This document shows, piece by piece, positions 1-64,000 of a stretch of DNA of 64,000 nt (within the stretch, counting starts at the first letter, position 1; each line of letters opens with the position of its first letter). Under the pieces are notes generated by a model, which was given only the letters and a program-made list of their open reading frames with translations, ran no database searches and was not told the DNA's origin. The position numbers were made by a program, and so were the translations under genes. This DNA comes from the human T2T-CHM13v2.0 reference genome, Homo sapiens, in the NCBI RefSeq assembly GCF_009914755.1, contig NC_060930.1; one strand, 5' to 3'.

Positions 1-3000
1 TGTATAAGAATGCTTGTGATTTTTGCACATTGATTTTGTATCCTGAGACTTTGCTGAAGTTGCTTATCAGCTTAAGGAGATTTTGGGCTGAGACAATGGG
101 GTTTTCTAGATATACAATCATGTCATCTGCAAACAGGGACAATTTGACTTCCTTTTTTCCTAATTGAATGCCCTTTATTTCCTTCTCCTGCCTGATTTAC
201 CTGGCCAGAACTTCCAACGCTATGTTGAATAGGAGTGGTGAGAGGGGGCATCCCTGTCTTGTGCCAGTTTTCAAAGGGAATGCTTCCAGTTTTTGTCCAT
301 TCATTATGATATTGGCTGTGGGTTTGTCATAGATAGCTCTTATTATTTTCAGATACGTCCCATCAATACCTAATTTTTTGAGAGTTTTTAGCATGAAGCG
401 TTGTTGAATTTTTTCAAAGGACTTTTCTTCCTCTATTGAGATAATCATGTGGTTTTTGTCTTTGGTTCCATTTATATGCTGGATTACGTTTATTGATTTT
501 TGTATGTTGAACCAGCCATGCATCCCAGGGATGAAGCCCATTTGATCATGGTGGATAAGCTTTTTGATGTGCTGCTGGATTTGGTTTGCCAGTATTTTAC
601 TGAGTTTTTTTGCATCACTGTTCATCAAGGATATTGGTCTAAAATTCTCTTTTTTTTGTTGTGTCTCTGCCAGGCTTTGGTATCAGGATGATGCTGGCCT
701 CATAAAATGAGTTAGGGAGGATTCCCTTTTTTTCTATTGATTGGAATAGTTTCAGAAGGAATGGTACCAGTTACCCCTTGTACCTCTGGTAGAATTAGGC
801 TGTGAATCCGCCTGTTCCTGGACTTTTTTTGGTTGGTAAGCTGTTGATTATTGCCACAATTTCAGATCCTGTTATTGGTCTATTCAGAGATTCAACTTCT
901 TCCTGGTTTAGTCTTGGGAGGGTGTATGTGTCCAGGAATTTATCCATTTCTTCTAGAATTTCTAGTTTATTTGCATAGAGGTGTTTATAGTATTCTCTGA
1001 TGGTAGTTTGTATTTCTGTGGGATCGGTGGTGATATCCCCTTTGTCATTTTTTATCGTGTCTATTTGATTCTTCTCTCTTTTCCTCTTTATTAGTCTTGC
1101 TAGCGGTCTATGAATTTTGTTGCTCTTTTCAAGAAACCAGCTCATGGATTCATTGATTTTTTGAAGGGTTTTTTGTGTCTCTATTTCCTTCAGTTCTGCT
1201 CTGATCTTAGTTATTTCTTGCCTTCTGCTAGCTTTTGAATGTGTTTGCTCTTGCTTTTCTAGTTCTTTTAATTGTGATGTTAGGGTGTCAATTTTGGATC
1301 TTTTCTGCTTTCTCCTGTGGGCATTTAGTGCCATAAATTTCCCTCTACACACTGCTTTGAATGTGTCCCAGAGATTCTGGTATGTTGTGTCTTTGTTCTC
1401 ATTGGTTTCAAAGAACATCTTTATTTCTACCTTTAGTTCATTATGTACCCAGTAGTCATTCAGGAGCAGGTTGTTCAGTTTCCGTGTAGTTGAGCGGTTT
1501 TGAGTGAGTTTCTTAATCCTGAATTCTAGTTTGATTGCACTGTGGTCTGAGAGACAGTTTGTTGTAATTTCTGTTTTTTACATTTGCTGAAGAGTGCTTC
1601 ATTTCCAACTATGTGGTCAGTTTTCGAATAGGTGTGGTGTGGTTCTGAAAAAAGTGTATATTCTGTTGTTTTGGGGTGGAGAGTTCTGTAGATGTCTATT
1701 AGGTCTGCTTGGTGCAGAGCTGAATTCAATTCCTGGATATCCTTGTTAAATATCTGTCTCGTTGGTCTGTCTAATGTTGACAGTGGGGTGTTAAAGTCTC
1801 CCATCATTATTGTGTGGGAGTCTAAGTCTCTTTGTAGGTCACTAAGGACTTGTTTTATGAATCTGGGTGCTCCTGTATTGGGTGCATATATATTTAGGAT
1901 AGGTAGCTCATCTCGTTGAATTTATCCCTTTACCATTATGTAATGGCCTTCTTTGTCTCTTTTGATCTTTGTTGGTTTAAAGTCTGTTTTATCTGAGAGT
2001 AGGATTGCAACCTCTGCCTTTTTTTGTTTTCCATTTGCTTGGTAGATCTTCCTCCATCCCTTTATTTTGAGCCTATGTGTGTCTCTGCATGTGAGATGGG
2101 TTTCCTGAATACAGCACACTGGTGGGTCTTGACTCTTTATCCAATTTGCCATTCTGTGTCTTTTAATTGGAGCATTTAGCTTACTTACATTTAAGGTTAA
2201 TATTGTTATATGTGAATTTGATCCTGTCATTATGATGTTAGCTAGTTATTTTGCTCGTTAGTTAATGCAGTTTCTTCCTAGCCTTGATGGTCTTTACAAT
2301 TTGGCGTGTTTTTGCAGTGGCTGGTACCGGTTGTTCCTTTACTTGTGTAGTGCTTCCTTTAGGAGCTCTTTCAGGGCAGGCCTGGTGGTGACAAAAATCT
2401 CTCAGCATTTGCTTGTCTGTAAAGGATTTTACTTCTCCTTCACTTATGAATCATAGTTTGGCTGGATATGAAATCCTGGTTTGAAAATTCTTTTCTTTAA
2501 GAATGTTGAATGTTGGTCCCCACTCTCTTCTGGCTTGTAGAGTTTCTTCTGAGAGATCAGCTGTTAGTCTGATTGGCTTCCCTTTGTGGGTAACCCGATC
2601 CTTCTCTCTGGCTGCCCTTATCATTTTTTCCTTCATTTCAACTTTGATGAATCTGACAATTATGTGTCTTGGAGTTGCTCTTCTTGAGGATTATCTTTGT
2701 GGCGTTCTCTGTATTTCTTGAATTTGAATATTGGCCCGCCTTGCTAGATTGGGAAAGTTCTCTTGGATAATATCCTGCAGACTGTTTTCCAACTTGGTTC
2801 CATTCTGCCCGTCACTTTCAGGTACACTAGTCAGACGTAGATTTGGTCTTTTCACATAGTCCCTTATCTCTTGGAGGCTTTGTTGGTTTCTTTTTTTTCT
2901 TTTTTCTCTAAACTTCTCTTCTGACTTCATTTCATTCATTTCATCTTCCATCGCTAATACCCTTTCTTTCAGTTTATCGCATTGGCTACTGAGGCTTGTG

Positions 3001-4331
3001 CATTTGTCATGTAGTTCTCGTGCTGTGGTTTTCAGCTCCATGAGGTCCTTTAAGGACTTCTCTGCATTGGTTATTCTAGTTAGCCATTCGTCTAACTTTT
3101 TTTCAAAGTTTTTAACTTCTTTGTCATTGGTTTGAACTTCCTCCTTTAGCTCGGCGTAGTTGGTCTTCTGAAGCCTTCTTCTCTCAACTCCTCAAAGTCA
3201 TTCTCCATCCAGCTTTTTCCATTGCTGCTGAGGAGCTGTGTTCCTTTGCAGGAGGAGAGACACTCTGATTTTTAGAGTTTCTGGTTTTTCTGCTCTGTTT
3301 TTTCCCCATCTTTGTGGTTTTCTCTACCTTTGGTGTTTGAAGATGGTGACGTACAGATGGGTTGTTGGTGTGGATGTCCTTTCTGTTTGTTAGATTTCCT
3401 TCTAACGGTCACGACCCTCAGCTGCAGGTCTGTTGGAGTTTGCTGGAGGTCCACTTCAGACCCTATCTGCCTCAGTATCAGCAGCGGTGGCTGCAGAACA
3501 GCGGATATTGGTGAACTGAAAATGCTGCTGACTGATCCTTCCTCTGGAAGTTTTGTGTCAGAGGAGTACCCGGCCGTGTGGTGTCAGTCCGCCCCTACTA
3601 GAGTTTGTCTCCCAGTTAGGCTACTCGGGGGTCAGGGACCCACTTAAGGAGGCAGTCTTTCCATTCTCAGATCTCAAGCTGCATGCTGGGAGAACCACTA
3701 GTCTCTTCAAAGCTGTCAGACAGGGACATTTAAGTCTGCAGAGGTTACTGCTGCCTTCTGTTTGTGCCCTGCCCCCAGAGGTGGAGCCTACAGAGACAGG
3801 CAGGCCTCCTTGAGCTGTGGTGGGCTCCACCCAGTTTGAGCCTCCAGGCTGCTTTGTTTACCTACCCAAGCCTCAGCAATGGTGGGTGCCCCTCCCACAG
3901 CCTCGCTGCTGCCTTGCCATTTGATCTCAGACTGCTGTGCTAGCAATGAGCGAGTCTCTGTGGGTGTAGCACCCTCCAAGCCAGGGGCGGTATATAATCT
4001 CCTGGTATGCATTTGTTAAACCCATTGGAAAAGCACAGTAATAGGGTGGGAGTGACCCGATTTTCCAGGTGCCATCTGTCACCCTTTTCTTTGACTAGGA
4101 AAGAGAATTCCTTGACCCCTTGCACTTCCCGGGTGAGGTGATGCCTCACCCTGCTTTGGGTCATGCACAGTGCACTGCACCCACTGTCCTGCACCCACTG
4201 TCCAGCACTCCCTAGTGAGATGAACCTGGTACCTCAGTTGGAAATGCAGAAATCACCCATCTTCTGGGTCGCTCACTCTGGGAGCTGTAGACTGGAGCTT
4301 TTCCTATTTGACCATCTTGGCTCCACCCCCC
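1..4331 (-). mobile_element. LINE-1 (L1PA4-like), copy L1-1; 5'UTR, ORF1 and the 5' part of ORF2, 3' end outside the window; ORFs disrupted
   Basis: 5' end reads GGGGGGTGGAGCCAAGATGG on the minus strand at 4331. ORF1 fragments at 2451-3041; ORF2 start MTGSNSHITILTLN at 2230; RT fragment [15 protein letters not shown] at 197-628. Confidence 0.96.
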
Positions 4332-62671: not shown

Positions 62672-64000
62672 TTTTATTATTATTATTATTATTTTATTAT
62701 TATTATACTTTAAGTTTTAGGGTACATGTACACAATGTGCAGGTTTGTTACATATGTATACATGTGCCATGTTGGTGTGCTGCACCCATTAACTCATCAT
62801 TTAGCATTAGGTATATCTCCTAATGCTATCCCTCCCCCTCCCCCCACCCCACAACAGTCCCCAGTGTGTGATGTTCCCCTTCCTGTGTCCATGTGTTCTT
62901 ACTGTTCAATTCCCACCTATGAGTGAGAACATTCAGTGTTTGGTTTTTTGTCCTTGCGATAGTTTGCTGAGAATGATGGTTTCCAGCTTCATCCATGTCC
63001 CTACAAAGGATATGAACTCATCATTTTTTATGGCTGCATAGTATTCCATGGTGTATATGTGCCACATTTTCTTAATCCAGTCTATCATTGTTGGACATTT
63101 GGCTTGGTTCCAAGTCTTTGCTATTGTGAATAGTGCCACAATAAACATATGTGTGCATGTGTTTTTATAGCAGCATGATTTATAGTCCTTTGGGTATATA
63201 CCCAGTAATGGGATGGTTGGGTCAAATGGTATTTCTAGTTCTAGATCCCTGAGGAATCGCCACACTGACTTCCACAAGGGTTGAACTAGTTTACAGTCCC
63301 ACCAACAGTGTAAAAGTGTTCCTATTTCTCCACATCTTCTCCAGCACTTGTTGTTTCCTGAATTTTTAATGATTGCCATTCTAACTGGTGTGAGATGGTA
63401 TCTCATTGTGGTTTTGATTTGCATTTCTCTGATGGCCAGTGATGGTGAGCATTTTTTCATGTGTCTTTTGGCTGCAAAATGTTTTCTTTTGAGAAGTGTC
63501 TGTTCATATCCTTCGCCCACTTTTTGATGGGGTTGTTTGTTTTTTTCTTGTAAATTTGTTGGAGTTCATTGTAGATTCTGGATATTAGCCCTTTGTCAGA
63601 TGAGTAGGTTGTGAAAATTTTCTCCCATTTTGTAGGTTGCCTGTTCACTCTGTTGGTAGTTTCTTTTGCTGTGCAGAAGCTCTTTAGTTTAATTAGATCC
63701 CAATTGTCAATTTTGGCTTTTGTTGCCATTGCTTTTGGTGTTTTAGACATGAAGTCCTTGCCTATGCCTATGTCCTGAATGGTAATGCCTAGGTTTTCTT
63801 CTAGGGTTTTTATGGTTTTAGGTCTAACGTTTGAGTCTTTAATCCATCTTGAATTGATTTTTGTATAAGGTGTAAGGAAGGGATCCAGTTTCAGCTTTCT
63901 ACATATGGCTAGCCAGTTTTCCCAGCACCATTTATTAAATAGGGAATCCTTTCCCCATTTCTTGTTTTTTTCAGGTTTGTCAAAGATCAGATAGTTGTAG
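62672..64000 (-). mobile_element. LINE-1 (L1PA3/4-like) 3' end, copy L1-7; continues beyond the window
   Basis: (TTA)n tail, 3'UTR tttagggtacatgtacacaatgtgcagg, ORF2 C-terminal ORFs at 62933-63750. Confidence 0.94.

What the first reader, a model, noticed from the sequence alone, without database searches (positions are those of the whole stretch)
1..64000. Seven L1s of different subfamilies share private variants in a mosaic network: apparent local concerted evolution
Seen: non-consensus states recur between copies in changing combinations. L1-1+L1-4: ttcttcctctattgag (IEEEK for IDAEK; ~425, ~28359), gagagtaggattgc (~1995, ~29930), cacttaaggagg (~3641, ~31575), cctattYgaccatc (~4303, ~32239), ttattttcagata (~343, ~28277). 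L1-1+3+4: gccattctgtgtc (RHRMAN for RHRLAN; ~2148, ~20669, ~30083). L1-1+3: ttttactgag (~595, ~19125), cctgaattctag (~1519, ~20043), gctgaagagtgc (~1586, ~20112). L1-3+4: tctgggggattgg (~19541, ~28948), [11 protein letters not shown], ccctgccttg. L1-3+4+7: ttgttggagttc (ELQQ for ELKQ; ~17585, ~26988, ~63556). L1-2+3+5: ORF1 ARTQ for ARRE (~14590, ~21040, ~46066). L1-3+5: SYPDKL. L1-2+5: GTTQGC. L1-5+6: atatactctgccc (~42571, ~58571). Established: the copies look like L1PA3 to PA7, which were active millions of years apart, and L1-2, L1-4 and L1-6 have their own TSDs, so they are separate insertions. Inference: patchy sharing across subfamilies is best explained by repeated interlocus gene conversion within a co-oriented L1 cluster. 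The consensus states are from memory and from the other copies here.
Basis: partly seen in the sequence, partly recalled or inferred. Interest (0 to 1): 0.85.

Follow-up and report, generated by a model that had tools for sequence, protein, structure and literature searches.

The report
Clustered L1 copies, mostly ordinary lineage sharing
Seven same-strand L1 retrotransposons share variants mainly because they descend from the same L1 lineages found all over the genome and because one copy is an old/young hybrid, so there is no local homogenisation, although two very rare shared changes could be small gene-conversion patches.

Summary
The interpretation mostly fails. The copies are separate insertions with their own target-site duplications in three age classes.

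Most "private" variants occur in dispersed L1s:
- ELQQ: 859 hits against 11,092 for ELKQ.
- RHRMAN: 66 against 6,159.
- Four others: 75-106 hits each.

L1-3 is a one-breakpoint chimera. Its 5'UTR/ORF1 is old-type and the rest, from window ~20692-20775 to the 3' end, is young-type. That explains why it shares ORF1 states with L1-2/5 and ORF2 states with L1-1/4.

Window copies are no closer to each other than to copies on other chromosomes. An AU test rejects a local clade (p 0.0005 and 0.0001). Dispersed copies are just as mosaic.

Two things remain unexplained. Two ultra-rare double substitutions are nearly confined to this window: ARTQ in 3 of the 4 L1 copies found genome-wide, and IEEEK in 2 of 3. 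One minor haplotype is also over-represented across about 230 kb. Short-tract ectopic conversion is possible there but unproven.

The parts
1..4331 (-). L1-1, young class. It is full length and its 3' end lies 1818 bases before the window. The target-site duplication AGGAATTCTT (+ strand) is at 4332-4341 and just before the poly(A) outside the window.
10267..16414 (-). L1-2, intermediate class. It is one element with an internal 115-base tandem duplication near 11110-11340 and a deletion of about 150 bases at about 12970. It has its own target-site duplication.
16716..20692 (-). L1-3, young-type part: most of ORF2, the 3'UTR and the poly(A). Private non-CpG divergence is 3.2%.
20692..20775 (-). 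L1-3 breakpoint interval. The switch from old-type to young-type diagnostic states is in register and lies at the start of ORF2.
20775..23193 (-). L1-3, old-type part: 5'UTR, ORF1 and the first ~100 bases of ORF2. Private non-CpG divergence is 7.5%. No target-site duplication was found for L1-3 as a whole.
26113..32267 (-). L1-4, young class, full length. The target-site duplication GGGGACACCCTTCT is at 26054-26067 and 32278-32291. Pfam domains of L1 ORF1, endonuclease and reverse transcriptase are present. It is nested in an ERV.
41733..48203 (-). L1-5, old class, full length.
57751..61942 (-). L1-6, old class, with an internal deletion joining the 3' 2.0 kb to the 5' 2.2 kb. It has its own target-site duplication.
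62683..64000 (-). L1-7, young class. It continues to about 65949 beyond the window and has an internal deletion of about 2.9 kb.
14588..14605 (-). ARTQ double substitution in L1-2. The same change is at 21038-21055 in L1-3 and 46063-46080 in L1-5. Only one other L1 in the genome (chr8) matched.
28359..28374 (-). IEEEK double substitution in L1-4. The same change is at 425-440 in L1-1. L1-3 carries one of the two changes. One other L1PA-like copy (chr12) has it.

Best explanation
The window holds seven independent LINE-1 insertions on one strand. They arrived in at least three periods.
- Young group: L1-1, L1-4, L1-7 and the 3' 4 kb of L1-3.
- Intermediate: L1-2.
- Old group: L1-5, L1-6 and the 5' 2.4 kb of L1-3.

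Most variants they share were inherited from the L1 source lineages that made them. The same variants, and pairs of them, occur in copies on other chromosomes. A further share is chance parallel mutation between long-decayed copies.

The sharing looks mosaic for two reasons. First, L1-3 is a hybrid: an old element's 5'UTR and ORF1 are joined in register to a young element's ORF2 and 3' end. This arose either by homologous recombination between two L1s or when a new truncated L1 copy was resolved against a resident L1. Second, the young L1 lineage is itself reticulate genome-wide.

Shown here: separate target-site duplications, the single breakpoint, the different ages of the two halves, dispersed carriers, and no excess local similarity. 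Inferred: the mechanism that made the hybrid.
For: - Own target-site duplications for L1-1, L1-2, L1-4 and L1-6, and for related local and dispersed copies. No flank homology between copies.
- Painting at 195 young/old diagnostic sites: L1-1, L1-4, L1-7 and two further chr6 copies are young throughout. L1-2 matches dispersed intermediate copies. L1-3 switches once.
- The L1-3 breakpoint lies between window 20775 and 20692. Private non-CpG branch is 7.5% on the 5' side and 3.2% on the 3' side, like L1-5 (7.7%) and L1-1 (3.1%) respectively.
- Genome counts of 66 to 859 for six of the listed variants. Five other copies carry two of the seven variants.
- Of the 13 ELQQ copies from chr1/chr2 that cover most of the region (16 fetched), 6 carry most of the 3' haplotype of L1-4 and L014 and 7 a more ancestral one like L1-1, L1-3 and L013. 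Three further copies are too short to class.
- Local copies are not closer to each other than to dispersed ones.
- The ML tree is star-like. The local label needs 5 changes against a shuffled mean of 4.3. The AU test rejects local clades.
- Shared-private counts, scaled by branch length: L1-3/L1-4 4 observed against 0.96 expected (P 0.016); L1-1/L1-3 3 against 1.14 (P 0.11). Among 105 pairs the lowest P belongs to a chr6/chr1 pair.
- Incompatible site pairs: 0.454 locally against 0.477 in dispersed 5-subsets. The neighbour-compatibility test is significant in the 9 dispersed copies (P <= 0.0005).
Against: - ARTQ matched only 4 L1 copies genome-wide and 3 are in this window. They include L1-2, which belongs to a different age class from L1-3-old and L1-5.
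- IEEEK is in 3 L1PA-like copies genome-wide and 2 are here. They sit on different twigs of the young lineage.
- RHRMAN: 6 of 66 genome hits lie in chr6:87.00-87.23 Mb.
- All 5 local young copies that cover both sites combine RHRMAN with ELQQ. This compares with 0 of 9 dispersed RHRMAN copies (Fisher about 0.0005, my arithmetic) and 1 of 9 dispersed ELQQ copies (about 0.003).
- Shared rare variants in each window pair include one tight cluster: L1_4 coordinates 3313/3319/3416, 2745/2814 and 3906/3908/3987.
- The panel is small and was chosen by variant. It has 17 dispersed RHRMAN copies and 16 ELQQ 3' ends. A random panel of 60 copies could not be fetched.
Confidence: 0.7

Rival explanations
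1. One reading: repeated interlocus gene conversion across the co-oriented cluster has produced local concerted evolution and is the main cause of the patchy sharing.
For: - Rare variants are shared in changing pair combinations.
- Local pairs average 1.90 shared-private sites per 4 kb against 0.72 for the other pairs, before correcting for branch length.
- ARTQ and IEEEK are nearly confined to the window.
Against: - No excess similarity among local copies.
- The local clade is rejected.
- Old and intermediate copies carry no young-type patches.
- Most variants are dispersed genome-wide.
- The excess mostly disappears once long private branches are allowed for.
- Sites where at least 3 of 6 local copies share a state number 22, against a mean of 16 for random 6-subsets; 19% of subsets reach 22.
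- Dispersed copies are equally mosaic.
Confidence: 0.05
2. On top of ordinary lineage sharing, a few short ectopic conversion tracts of tens to about 100 bases passed between neighbouring L1s. Candidates are ARTQ among L1-3-old, L1-5 and the adjacent L1-2, and IEEEK plus the CTG variant 81 bases away between L1-1 and L1-4.
For: - ARTQ is in 3 of the 4 matching L1 copies genome-wide and crosses age classes. L1-2's homologous site is 6.45 kb from L1-3's.
- IEEEK is in 2 of 3 L1PA-like copies, with CTG shared 81 bases away.
- One tight cluster of shared rare sites in each window pair.
- Conversion between neighbouring Alus within about 10 kb, and single L1 conversion events, are in print (PMC8230782 and PMC1920257, passages read).
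Against: - Within the putative L1-1/L1-4 tract the two copies differ at about 10 of 82 positions, more than their average.
- No flanking variants travel with ARTQ.
- CTG alone has 102 dispersed hits.
- The chr12 and chr8 carriers show that both double changes also exist elsewhere.
- Similar tight clusters occur in dispersed pairs such as L030/L031 and L022/L024.
- Both rare variants were picked by eye from many possible comparisons.
Confidence: 0.3
3. Sibling insertions clustered in space. A minor source lineage (RHRMAN+ELQQ, and earlier the ARTQ lineage) placed, or retained, several progeny in this L1-dense neighbourhood, for instance because a source element lay nearby or the region was unusually permissive at the time.
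For: - 6 of 66 RHRMAN hits lie within 231 kb, each copy with its own target-site duplication where this could be read.
- RHRMAN+ELQQ is in 5 of 5 local copies against 1 of 9 and 0 of 9 elsewhere.
- ELQQ copies form groups of 3-4 within 50-215 kb on chr1 and chr2 as well (read by eye).
- One more local L1 on the opposite strand at chr6:87.0356 Mb carries two of L1-1's variants.
Against: - No mechanism for local re-insertion of L1 is known to me (recalled).
- The local copies lie on different twigs of the lineage and are not a clade.
- The density of long L1s here is only about 10 times the genome mean: 3 hits in 64 kb against 0.31 expected. That does not account for 6 of 66.
Confidence: 0.25

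Closest known systems
Succession of primate L1 (L1PA) subfamilies, with diagnostic substitutions and replaced 5'UTR/ORF1 modules (Khan, Smit and Boissinot 2006; recalled, paper not held)
   Same: Trees are ladder-like. The 5'UTR and ORF1 differ strongly between age classes while ORF2 is conserved. Shared states track lineage.
   Different: I could not assign named subfamilies. The young lineage shows reticulation among dispersed copies, which a strict single-lineage ladder does not predict.
Recombinant or chimeric full-length L1 loci in human assemblies (PMC13192797; methods and results passages read). Of 2,267 loci screened, 48 were nominated, 22 were high-confidence and 13 probable.
   Same: L1-3 is a two-parent L1 with one in-register breakpoint.
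   Different: Those are young L1HS/L1PA2-type loci. L1-3 joins parts whose private divergence differs 2.3-fold, so it formed in place from elements of different ages. It was not inserted as a recombinant.
Non-allelic gene conversion between neighbouring Alu elements, acting within about 10 kb (statement in the introduction of PMC8230782 citing an earlier genome-wide study; passage read)
   Same: Nearby co-oriented repeats share non-diagnostic variants. ARTQ in L1-2 and L1-3 is 6.45 kb apart.
   Different: No tract structure or excess similarity is seen here. Other sharing spans 25-230 kb, beyond the stated Alu range.
L1 conversion and rearrangement events at single loci (PMC1920257; passages read). 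This covers an intra-chromosomal conversion proposed for one locus, and repair of a break in a LINE by conversion from other LINEs (reference listing only).
   Same: Shows that L1 sequence can be patched from another L1.
   Different: Those are single documented events with clear donor tracts. None is demonstrated here.

Membership tests
LINE-1 (L1) retrotransposon | ORF1 protein domains | tested here: met
   L1-4 30229-30657(-): Transposase_22 at 4.5e-29 and Tnp_22_dsRBD at 1.3e-43.
LINE-1 (L1) retrotransposon | ORF2 endonuclease and reverse transcriptase | tested here: met
   L1-4: Exo_endo_phos at 1.5e-19 and RVT_1 at 1.4e-33. The frames are broken by stops. The other six copies align to L1-4.
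LINE-1 (L1) retrotransposon | A-rich 3' tail and target-site duplication | tested here: met
   Read for L1-1, L1-2, L1-4 and L1-6. Not found for L1-3. Unclear for L1-5 and L1-7.
Interlocus gene conversion / concerted evolution | Paralogues in the array are more alike than each is to dispersed relatives | tested here: not met
   5.9-6.3% among L1-1/3/4, against 4.0-5.7% to dispersed copies apart from the long-branched L024, L023 and L005. The local clade is rejected.
Interlocus gene conversion / concerted evolution | Contiguous tracts in which two copies share private variants and are otherwise near-identical | tested here: inconclusive
   Each pair has one cluster of 2-3 shared rare sites within 100 bases or fewer. 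The copies differ heavily inside the best candidate tract. Dispersed pairs show similar clusters.
Interlocus gene conversion / concerted evolution | Shared variants absent from dispersed members of the family | tested here: inconclusive
   Not met for the six variants with 66-859 genome hits. CCAATCCCCC has only 6 hits, but two of its four dispersed carriers share a second L1-4 variant. Nearly met for ARTQ and IEEEK.
Interlocus gene conversion / concerted evolution | The variant appears in an orthologous copy after insertion (comparison across species) | not testable with these tools
   No primate genomes are held.
Chimeric L1 formed by homologous recombination or resolution against a resident L1 | A single in-register breakpoint between two parental types | tested here: met
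   The diagnostic sites are almost all old-type up to L1_4 coordinate 2081 and almost all young-type from 2165. One site is discordant on each side. The coordinate offset is constant.
Chimeric L1 formed by homologous recombination or resolution against a resident L1 | The two parts have different ages | tested here: met
   Private non-CpG branch 7.5% against 3.2%. The old-type panel is small (5 copies).
Chimeric L1 formed by homologous recombination or resolution against a resident L1 | No target-site duplication spanning the whole element | tested here: met
   No match by eye between 60 bases of 5' flank and 90 bases of 3' flank. Decay of an old duplication is not excluded.

The most novel reading that the evidence does not exclude
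Short patches of sequence pass between neighbouring L1s of different ages, as they do between neighbouring Alus. ARTQ would have moved among L1-5, L1-3 and L1-2, and IEEEK between L1-1 and L1-4. The same process, or local re-insertion from a resident source, would have made one minor haplotype (RHRMAN+ELQQ) the rule across about 230 kb of chr6:87.0-87.23 Mb. L1-dense deserts would then carry a faint local signature of sequence exchange that whole-element similarity does not show.
Probability: 0.2. Interest if true: 0.55.

Novelty: already known. Interest (0 to 1): 0.3.

Why it matters
If the ordinary reading holds, the window is a worked warning. Variants that look private among a handful of L1 copies are usually minor-lineage markers or parallel hits, and one hybrid element can mimic a network of exchange.

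The residue would matter if it proves general. Proximity-dependent exchange between L1s would bias age estimates based on divergence. It would also blur subfamily calls in L1-dense regions.

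Tried and rejected
- Segmental or tandem duplication as the source of related copies. Rejected: target-site duplications differ and the self-comparison shows no flank homology.
- Unequal crossing-over between L1-1 and L1-4 creating L1-3. Rejected: the intervals are not duplicated, and L1-3 shares only 5-6 private sites with each.
- L1-2 as two joined elements or a partly converted one, suggested by the identity jump at about 12970. Rejected: painting matches dispersed intermediate copies throughout. The junction near 11222 is an internal 115-base tandem duplication.
- An old L1M-type donor for the IEEEK patch. Four old, diverged L1 copies carry the same 16-mer at the homologous place. 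They do not share L1-4's other private states.
- ARTQ as the consensus state of a sizeable old subfamily. A 15-mer gives 21 hits against 11 for the control, and 3 of 6 hits of the 17-mer are not in L1 at all.
- ELQQ as a purely local state. It occurs on both 3' haplotype backgrounds in copies from chr1 and chr2.
The panels used were therefore chosen by variant.
- Earlier findings were not open.
- Khan et al. 2006 is not held.
- No subfamily consensus library and no primate genomes were available. Supplements of PMC13192797 were not looked at.

Full report
**What is there.** The window (human chr6:87,048,001-87,112,000) holds seven L1 copies, all on the minus strand.
- L1-1: 1-4331. It is full length and its 3' end lies 1818 bases upstream of the window.
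- L1-2: 10267-16414.
- L1-3: 16716-23193.
- L1-4: 26113-32267.
- L1-5: 41733-48203.
- L1-6: 57751-61942, with an internal deletion.
- L1-7: 62683 to beyond the window, with an internal deletion.

L1-4 carries L1 ORF1, endonuclease and reverse-transcriptase domains in broken frames. L1-1, L1-2, L1-4 and L1-6 each have their own target-site duplication. So do related copies elsewhere. No flanks are homologous. The copies are therefore separate insertions, not duplicates.

**The observation.** All 13 DNA k-mers I searched lie at the stated places, one of them off by a single base. The states per copy are as described. ARTQ is present in L1-2, L1-3 and L1-5. Four peptide motifs were not checked.

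**Age classes and the hybrid.**
- Identity along the element is uneven. L1-1, L1-3 and L1-4 are 90-96% alike in ORF2, but L1-3 is only 64-76% like them in the 5' 2 kb. There it is closest to L1-5 and L1-6, at 76-85%.
- I painted 195 sites that separate ten dispersed young-type copies from old-type copies. L1-1, L1-4 and L1-7 are young throughout, as are two further chr6 copies at 87.17 and 87.23 Mb. L1-5 and L1-6 are old. L1-2 is intermediate and matches dispersed intermediate copies site by site.
- L1-3 switches once, between window 20775 and 20692, in register, at the start of ORF2.
- The private non-CpG branch of L1-3 is 7.5% on the 5' side, like L1-5 (7.7%) and L1-6 (7.4%). It is 3.2% on the 3' side, like L1-1 (3.1%) and L1-4 (2.7%).
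- L1-3 has no target-site duplication.

L1-3 is therefore a hybrid formed in place from an old and a young element. This one fact explains why it shares ORF1 states with L1-2 and L1-5 and ORF2 states with L1-1 and L1-4. Recombinant L1 loci are known: 22 high-confidence and 13 probable among 2,267 screened (PMC13192797, passages).

**Are the shared variants private?** Mostly not.

| Variant | Genome hits | Comparison |
|---|---|---|
| ELQQ | 859 | ELKQ 11,092 |
| RHRMAN | 66 | RHRLAN 6,159 |
| CTCTTC | 75 | |
| GAATTC | 106 | |
| CTACTCTC | 100 | |
| CTG | 102 | |
| CCAATCCCCC | 6 | |

- Cross-referencing the listed places shows five other copies that carry two of the seven variants. They are at chr2:180.24, chr9:134.91, chr3:23.04, chrY:7.85 and chr6:87.036 Mb, the last on the opposite strand.
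- Sixteen ELQQ copies fetched from chr1 and chr2 are 93.1-96.7% identical to L1-4 over their 3' parts.
- Of the 13 that cover most of the region, 6 carry most of the 3' haplotype of L1-4 and L014. The other 7 carry a more ancestral one like L1-1, L1-3 and L013. Three are too short to class.

**Is there local homogenisation?** No.
- Non-CpG differences among L1-1, L1-3 and L1-4 are 5.9-6.3%. Each is 4.0-5.7% from dispersed relatives other than the long-branched L024, L023 and L005.
- An ML tree of 3,655 non-CpG columns is star-like. The local label is not clustered: it needs 5 changes, against a shuffled mean of 4.3.
- The AU test rejects a clade of the five local copies (p 0.0005) and of L1-1+3+4 (p 0.0001).
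- Raw counts of sites shared by exactly two copies are higher for local pairs: 1.90 against 0.72 per 4 kb, with L1-3/L1-4 at 6 and L1-1/L1-3 at 5.
- These three copies also have the longest private branches. With expectations scaled by branch length, L1-3/L1-4 give 4 against 0.96 (P 0.016) and L1-1/L1-3 give 3 against 1.14 (P 0.11). L1-1/L1-4 is not among the 20 lowest of 105 pairs. The lowest P is a chr6/chr1 pair.
- Sites where at least 3 of 6 local copies share a state that is rare elsewhere number 22. Random 6-subsets average 16, and 19% of them reach 22.
- The fraction of incompatible site pairs is 0.454 locally and 0.477 on average in dispersed 5-subsets. The neighbour-compatibility test is significant in the nine dispersed copies (P <= 0.0005) and weaker locally (0.02-0.18).

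The mosaic pattern is thus a property of this L1 lineage wherever its copies lie.

**What remains.**

1. ARTQ is a double change two bases apart.
   - The 17-mer has 6 hits against 6,999 for ARRE.
   - Three of the four hits outside the window are not in L1.
   - A pattern that also admits L1-5's flanks finds 4 copies, 3 of them here.
   - A 15-mer gives 21 hits against 11 for the control.
   - The chr8 carrier also shares one more rare state (1095T) with L1-3 and L1-5, so those three may be a small old lineage.
   - L1-2 belongs to another age class, and its nearest dispersed relative has ARRD.
   - No flanking variant travels with ARTQ.
2. IEEEK is also a double change two bases apart.
   - It has 11 hits. 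Only L1-1, L1-4 and a chr12 copy are L1PA-like. Four hits lie in old, diverged L1s and four are not in L1.
   - L1-3 has one of the two changes.
   - L1-1 and L1-4 also share CTG 81 bases away, yet they differ at about 10 of the 82 positions between.
3. Six of the 66 RHRMAN hits lie in chr6:87.00-87.23 Mb.
   - The five young ones all combine RHRMAN with ELQQ, whereas 0 of 9 dispersed RHRMAN copies do.
   - Only 1 of 9 dispersed ELQQ copies that reach the site has RHRMAN. Eight of these came from 20 sites probed and one from cross-reference.
   - My Fisher arithmetic gives about 0.0005 and 0.003.

**Reading of the residue.**
- Short ectopic conversion would explain points 1 and 2. It is a known process between nearby repeats (PMC8230782 and PMC1920257, passages).
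- The usual signs of conversion are missing or ambiguous. These are tracts of near-identity and co-transferred flanking variants.
- Both variants were picked by eye from very many possible comparisons.
- Point 3 is hard to explain by conversion. The copies span 230 kb and differ at lineage sites within 50 bases of the RHRMAN site.
- Point 3 looks instead like several insertions of one minor haplotype in one L1-dense region. I have no mechanism for that.

**Limits.**
- The panels are small and were chosen by variant.
- K-mer counts need intact flanks, so they undercount old copies.
- Named subfamilies could not be tested, and no primate orthologues were available.

**Verdict.** This is mostly ordinary L1 lineage structure plus one hybrid element. 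Local concerted evolution is not supported. A few short conversion patches are possible (about 0.3).

Noticed in passing
window 23415-24000 and 36174-36755, with 24001-36173 between: Two 588-base repeats 92.5% alike flank a stretch with an integrase core match (33206-33481, minus) and a Gag matrix match (35022-35408, minus). This looks like an endogenous retrovirus with its two LTRs. L1-4 is inserted inside it.
   Followed up: partly
chr6:87.00-87.24 Mb (loci L012, L013, L014 and the window): Six of the 66 genome hits of the RHRMAN 20-mer fall in 231 kb, all in one orientation. The five young ones also carry ELQQ, a combination seen in 1 of 9 dispersed ELQQ copies and 0 of 9 dispersed RHRMAN copies. 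This is unexplained.
   Followed up: partly
chr6:87,035,551-87,036,752 (about 11-12.5 kb before the window): An L1 on the opposite strand carries two of L1-1's rarer variants, GAATTC and CTG, at the right spacing. It was not fetched.
   Followed up: no
window 11110-11340 and about 12970 (L1-2): An internal tandem duplication of about 115 bases in the 3' part of ORF2, and a deletion of about 150 bases relative to the other copies.
   Followed up: partly
chr1 and chr2 places listed: ELQQ-lineage copies often lie in groups of 3-4 within 50-215 kb, for example chr1:97.96-98.01, chr1:99.19-99.25, chr2:179.47-179.68 and chr2:195.55-195.75 Mb. None of the 47 chr1 hits lies before 56 Mb, although the commoner ELKQ form has about 90 hits there. 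Read by eye, not tested.
   Followed up: no
loci L022/L023 (chr14:49.08 and 49.16 Mb) and L020/L021 (chr5:120.65 and 120.70 Mb): Two other pairs of RHRMAN copies lie 78 and 49 kb apart. The chr14 pair shares 5-6 private transversions, three of them within 55 bases, and groups as sisters in the ORF2 trees. L020 and L021 have their own target-site duplications.
   Followed up: partly
window 16415-16715: L1-2's 5' end and L1-3's 3' end lie 300 bases apart, inside what looks like one older interspersed repeat. The family was not identified.
   Followed up: no
window 5612-6290, 6455-6694, 8680-8873, 38614-38777, 40170-40293, 62265-62623: Short, 72-80% identical L1 matches, some on the opposite strand. 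These are remnants of much older L1s.
   Followed up: no
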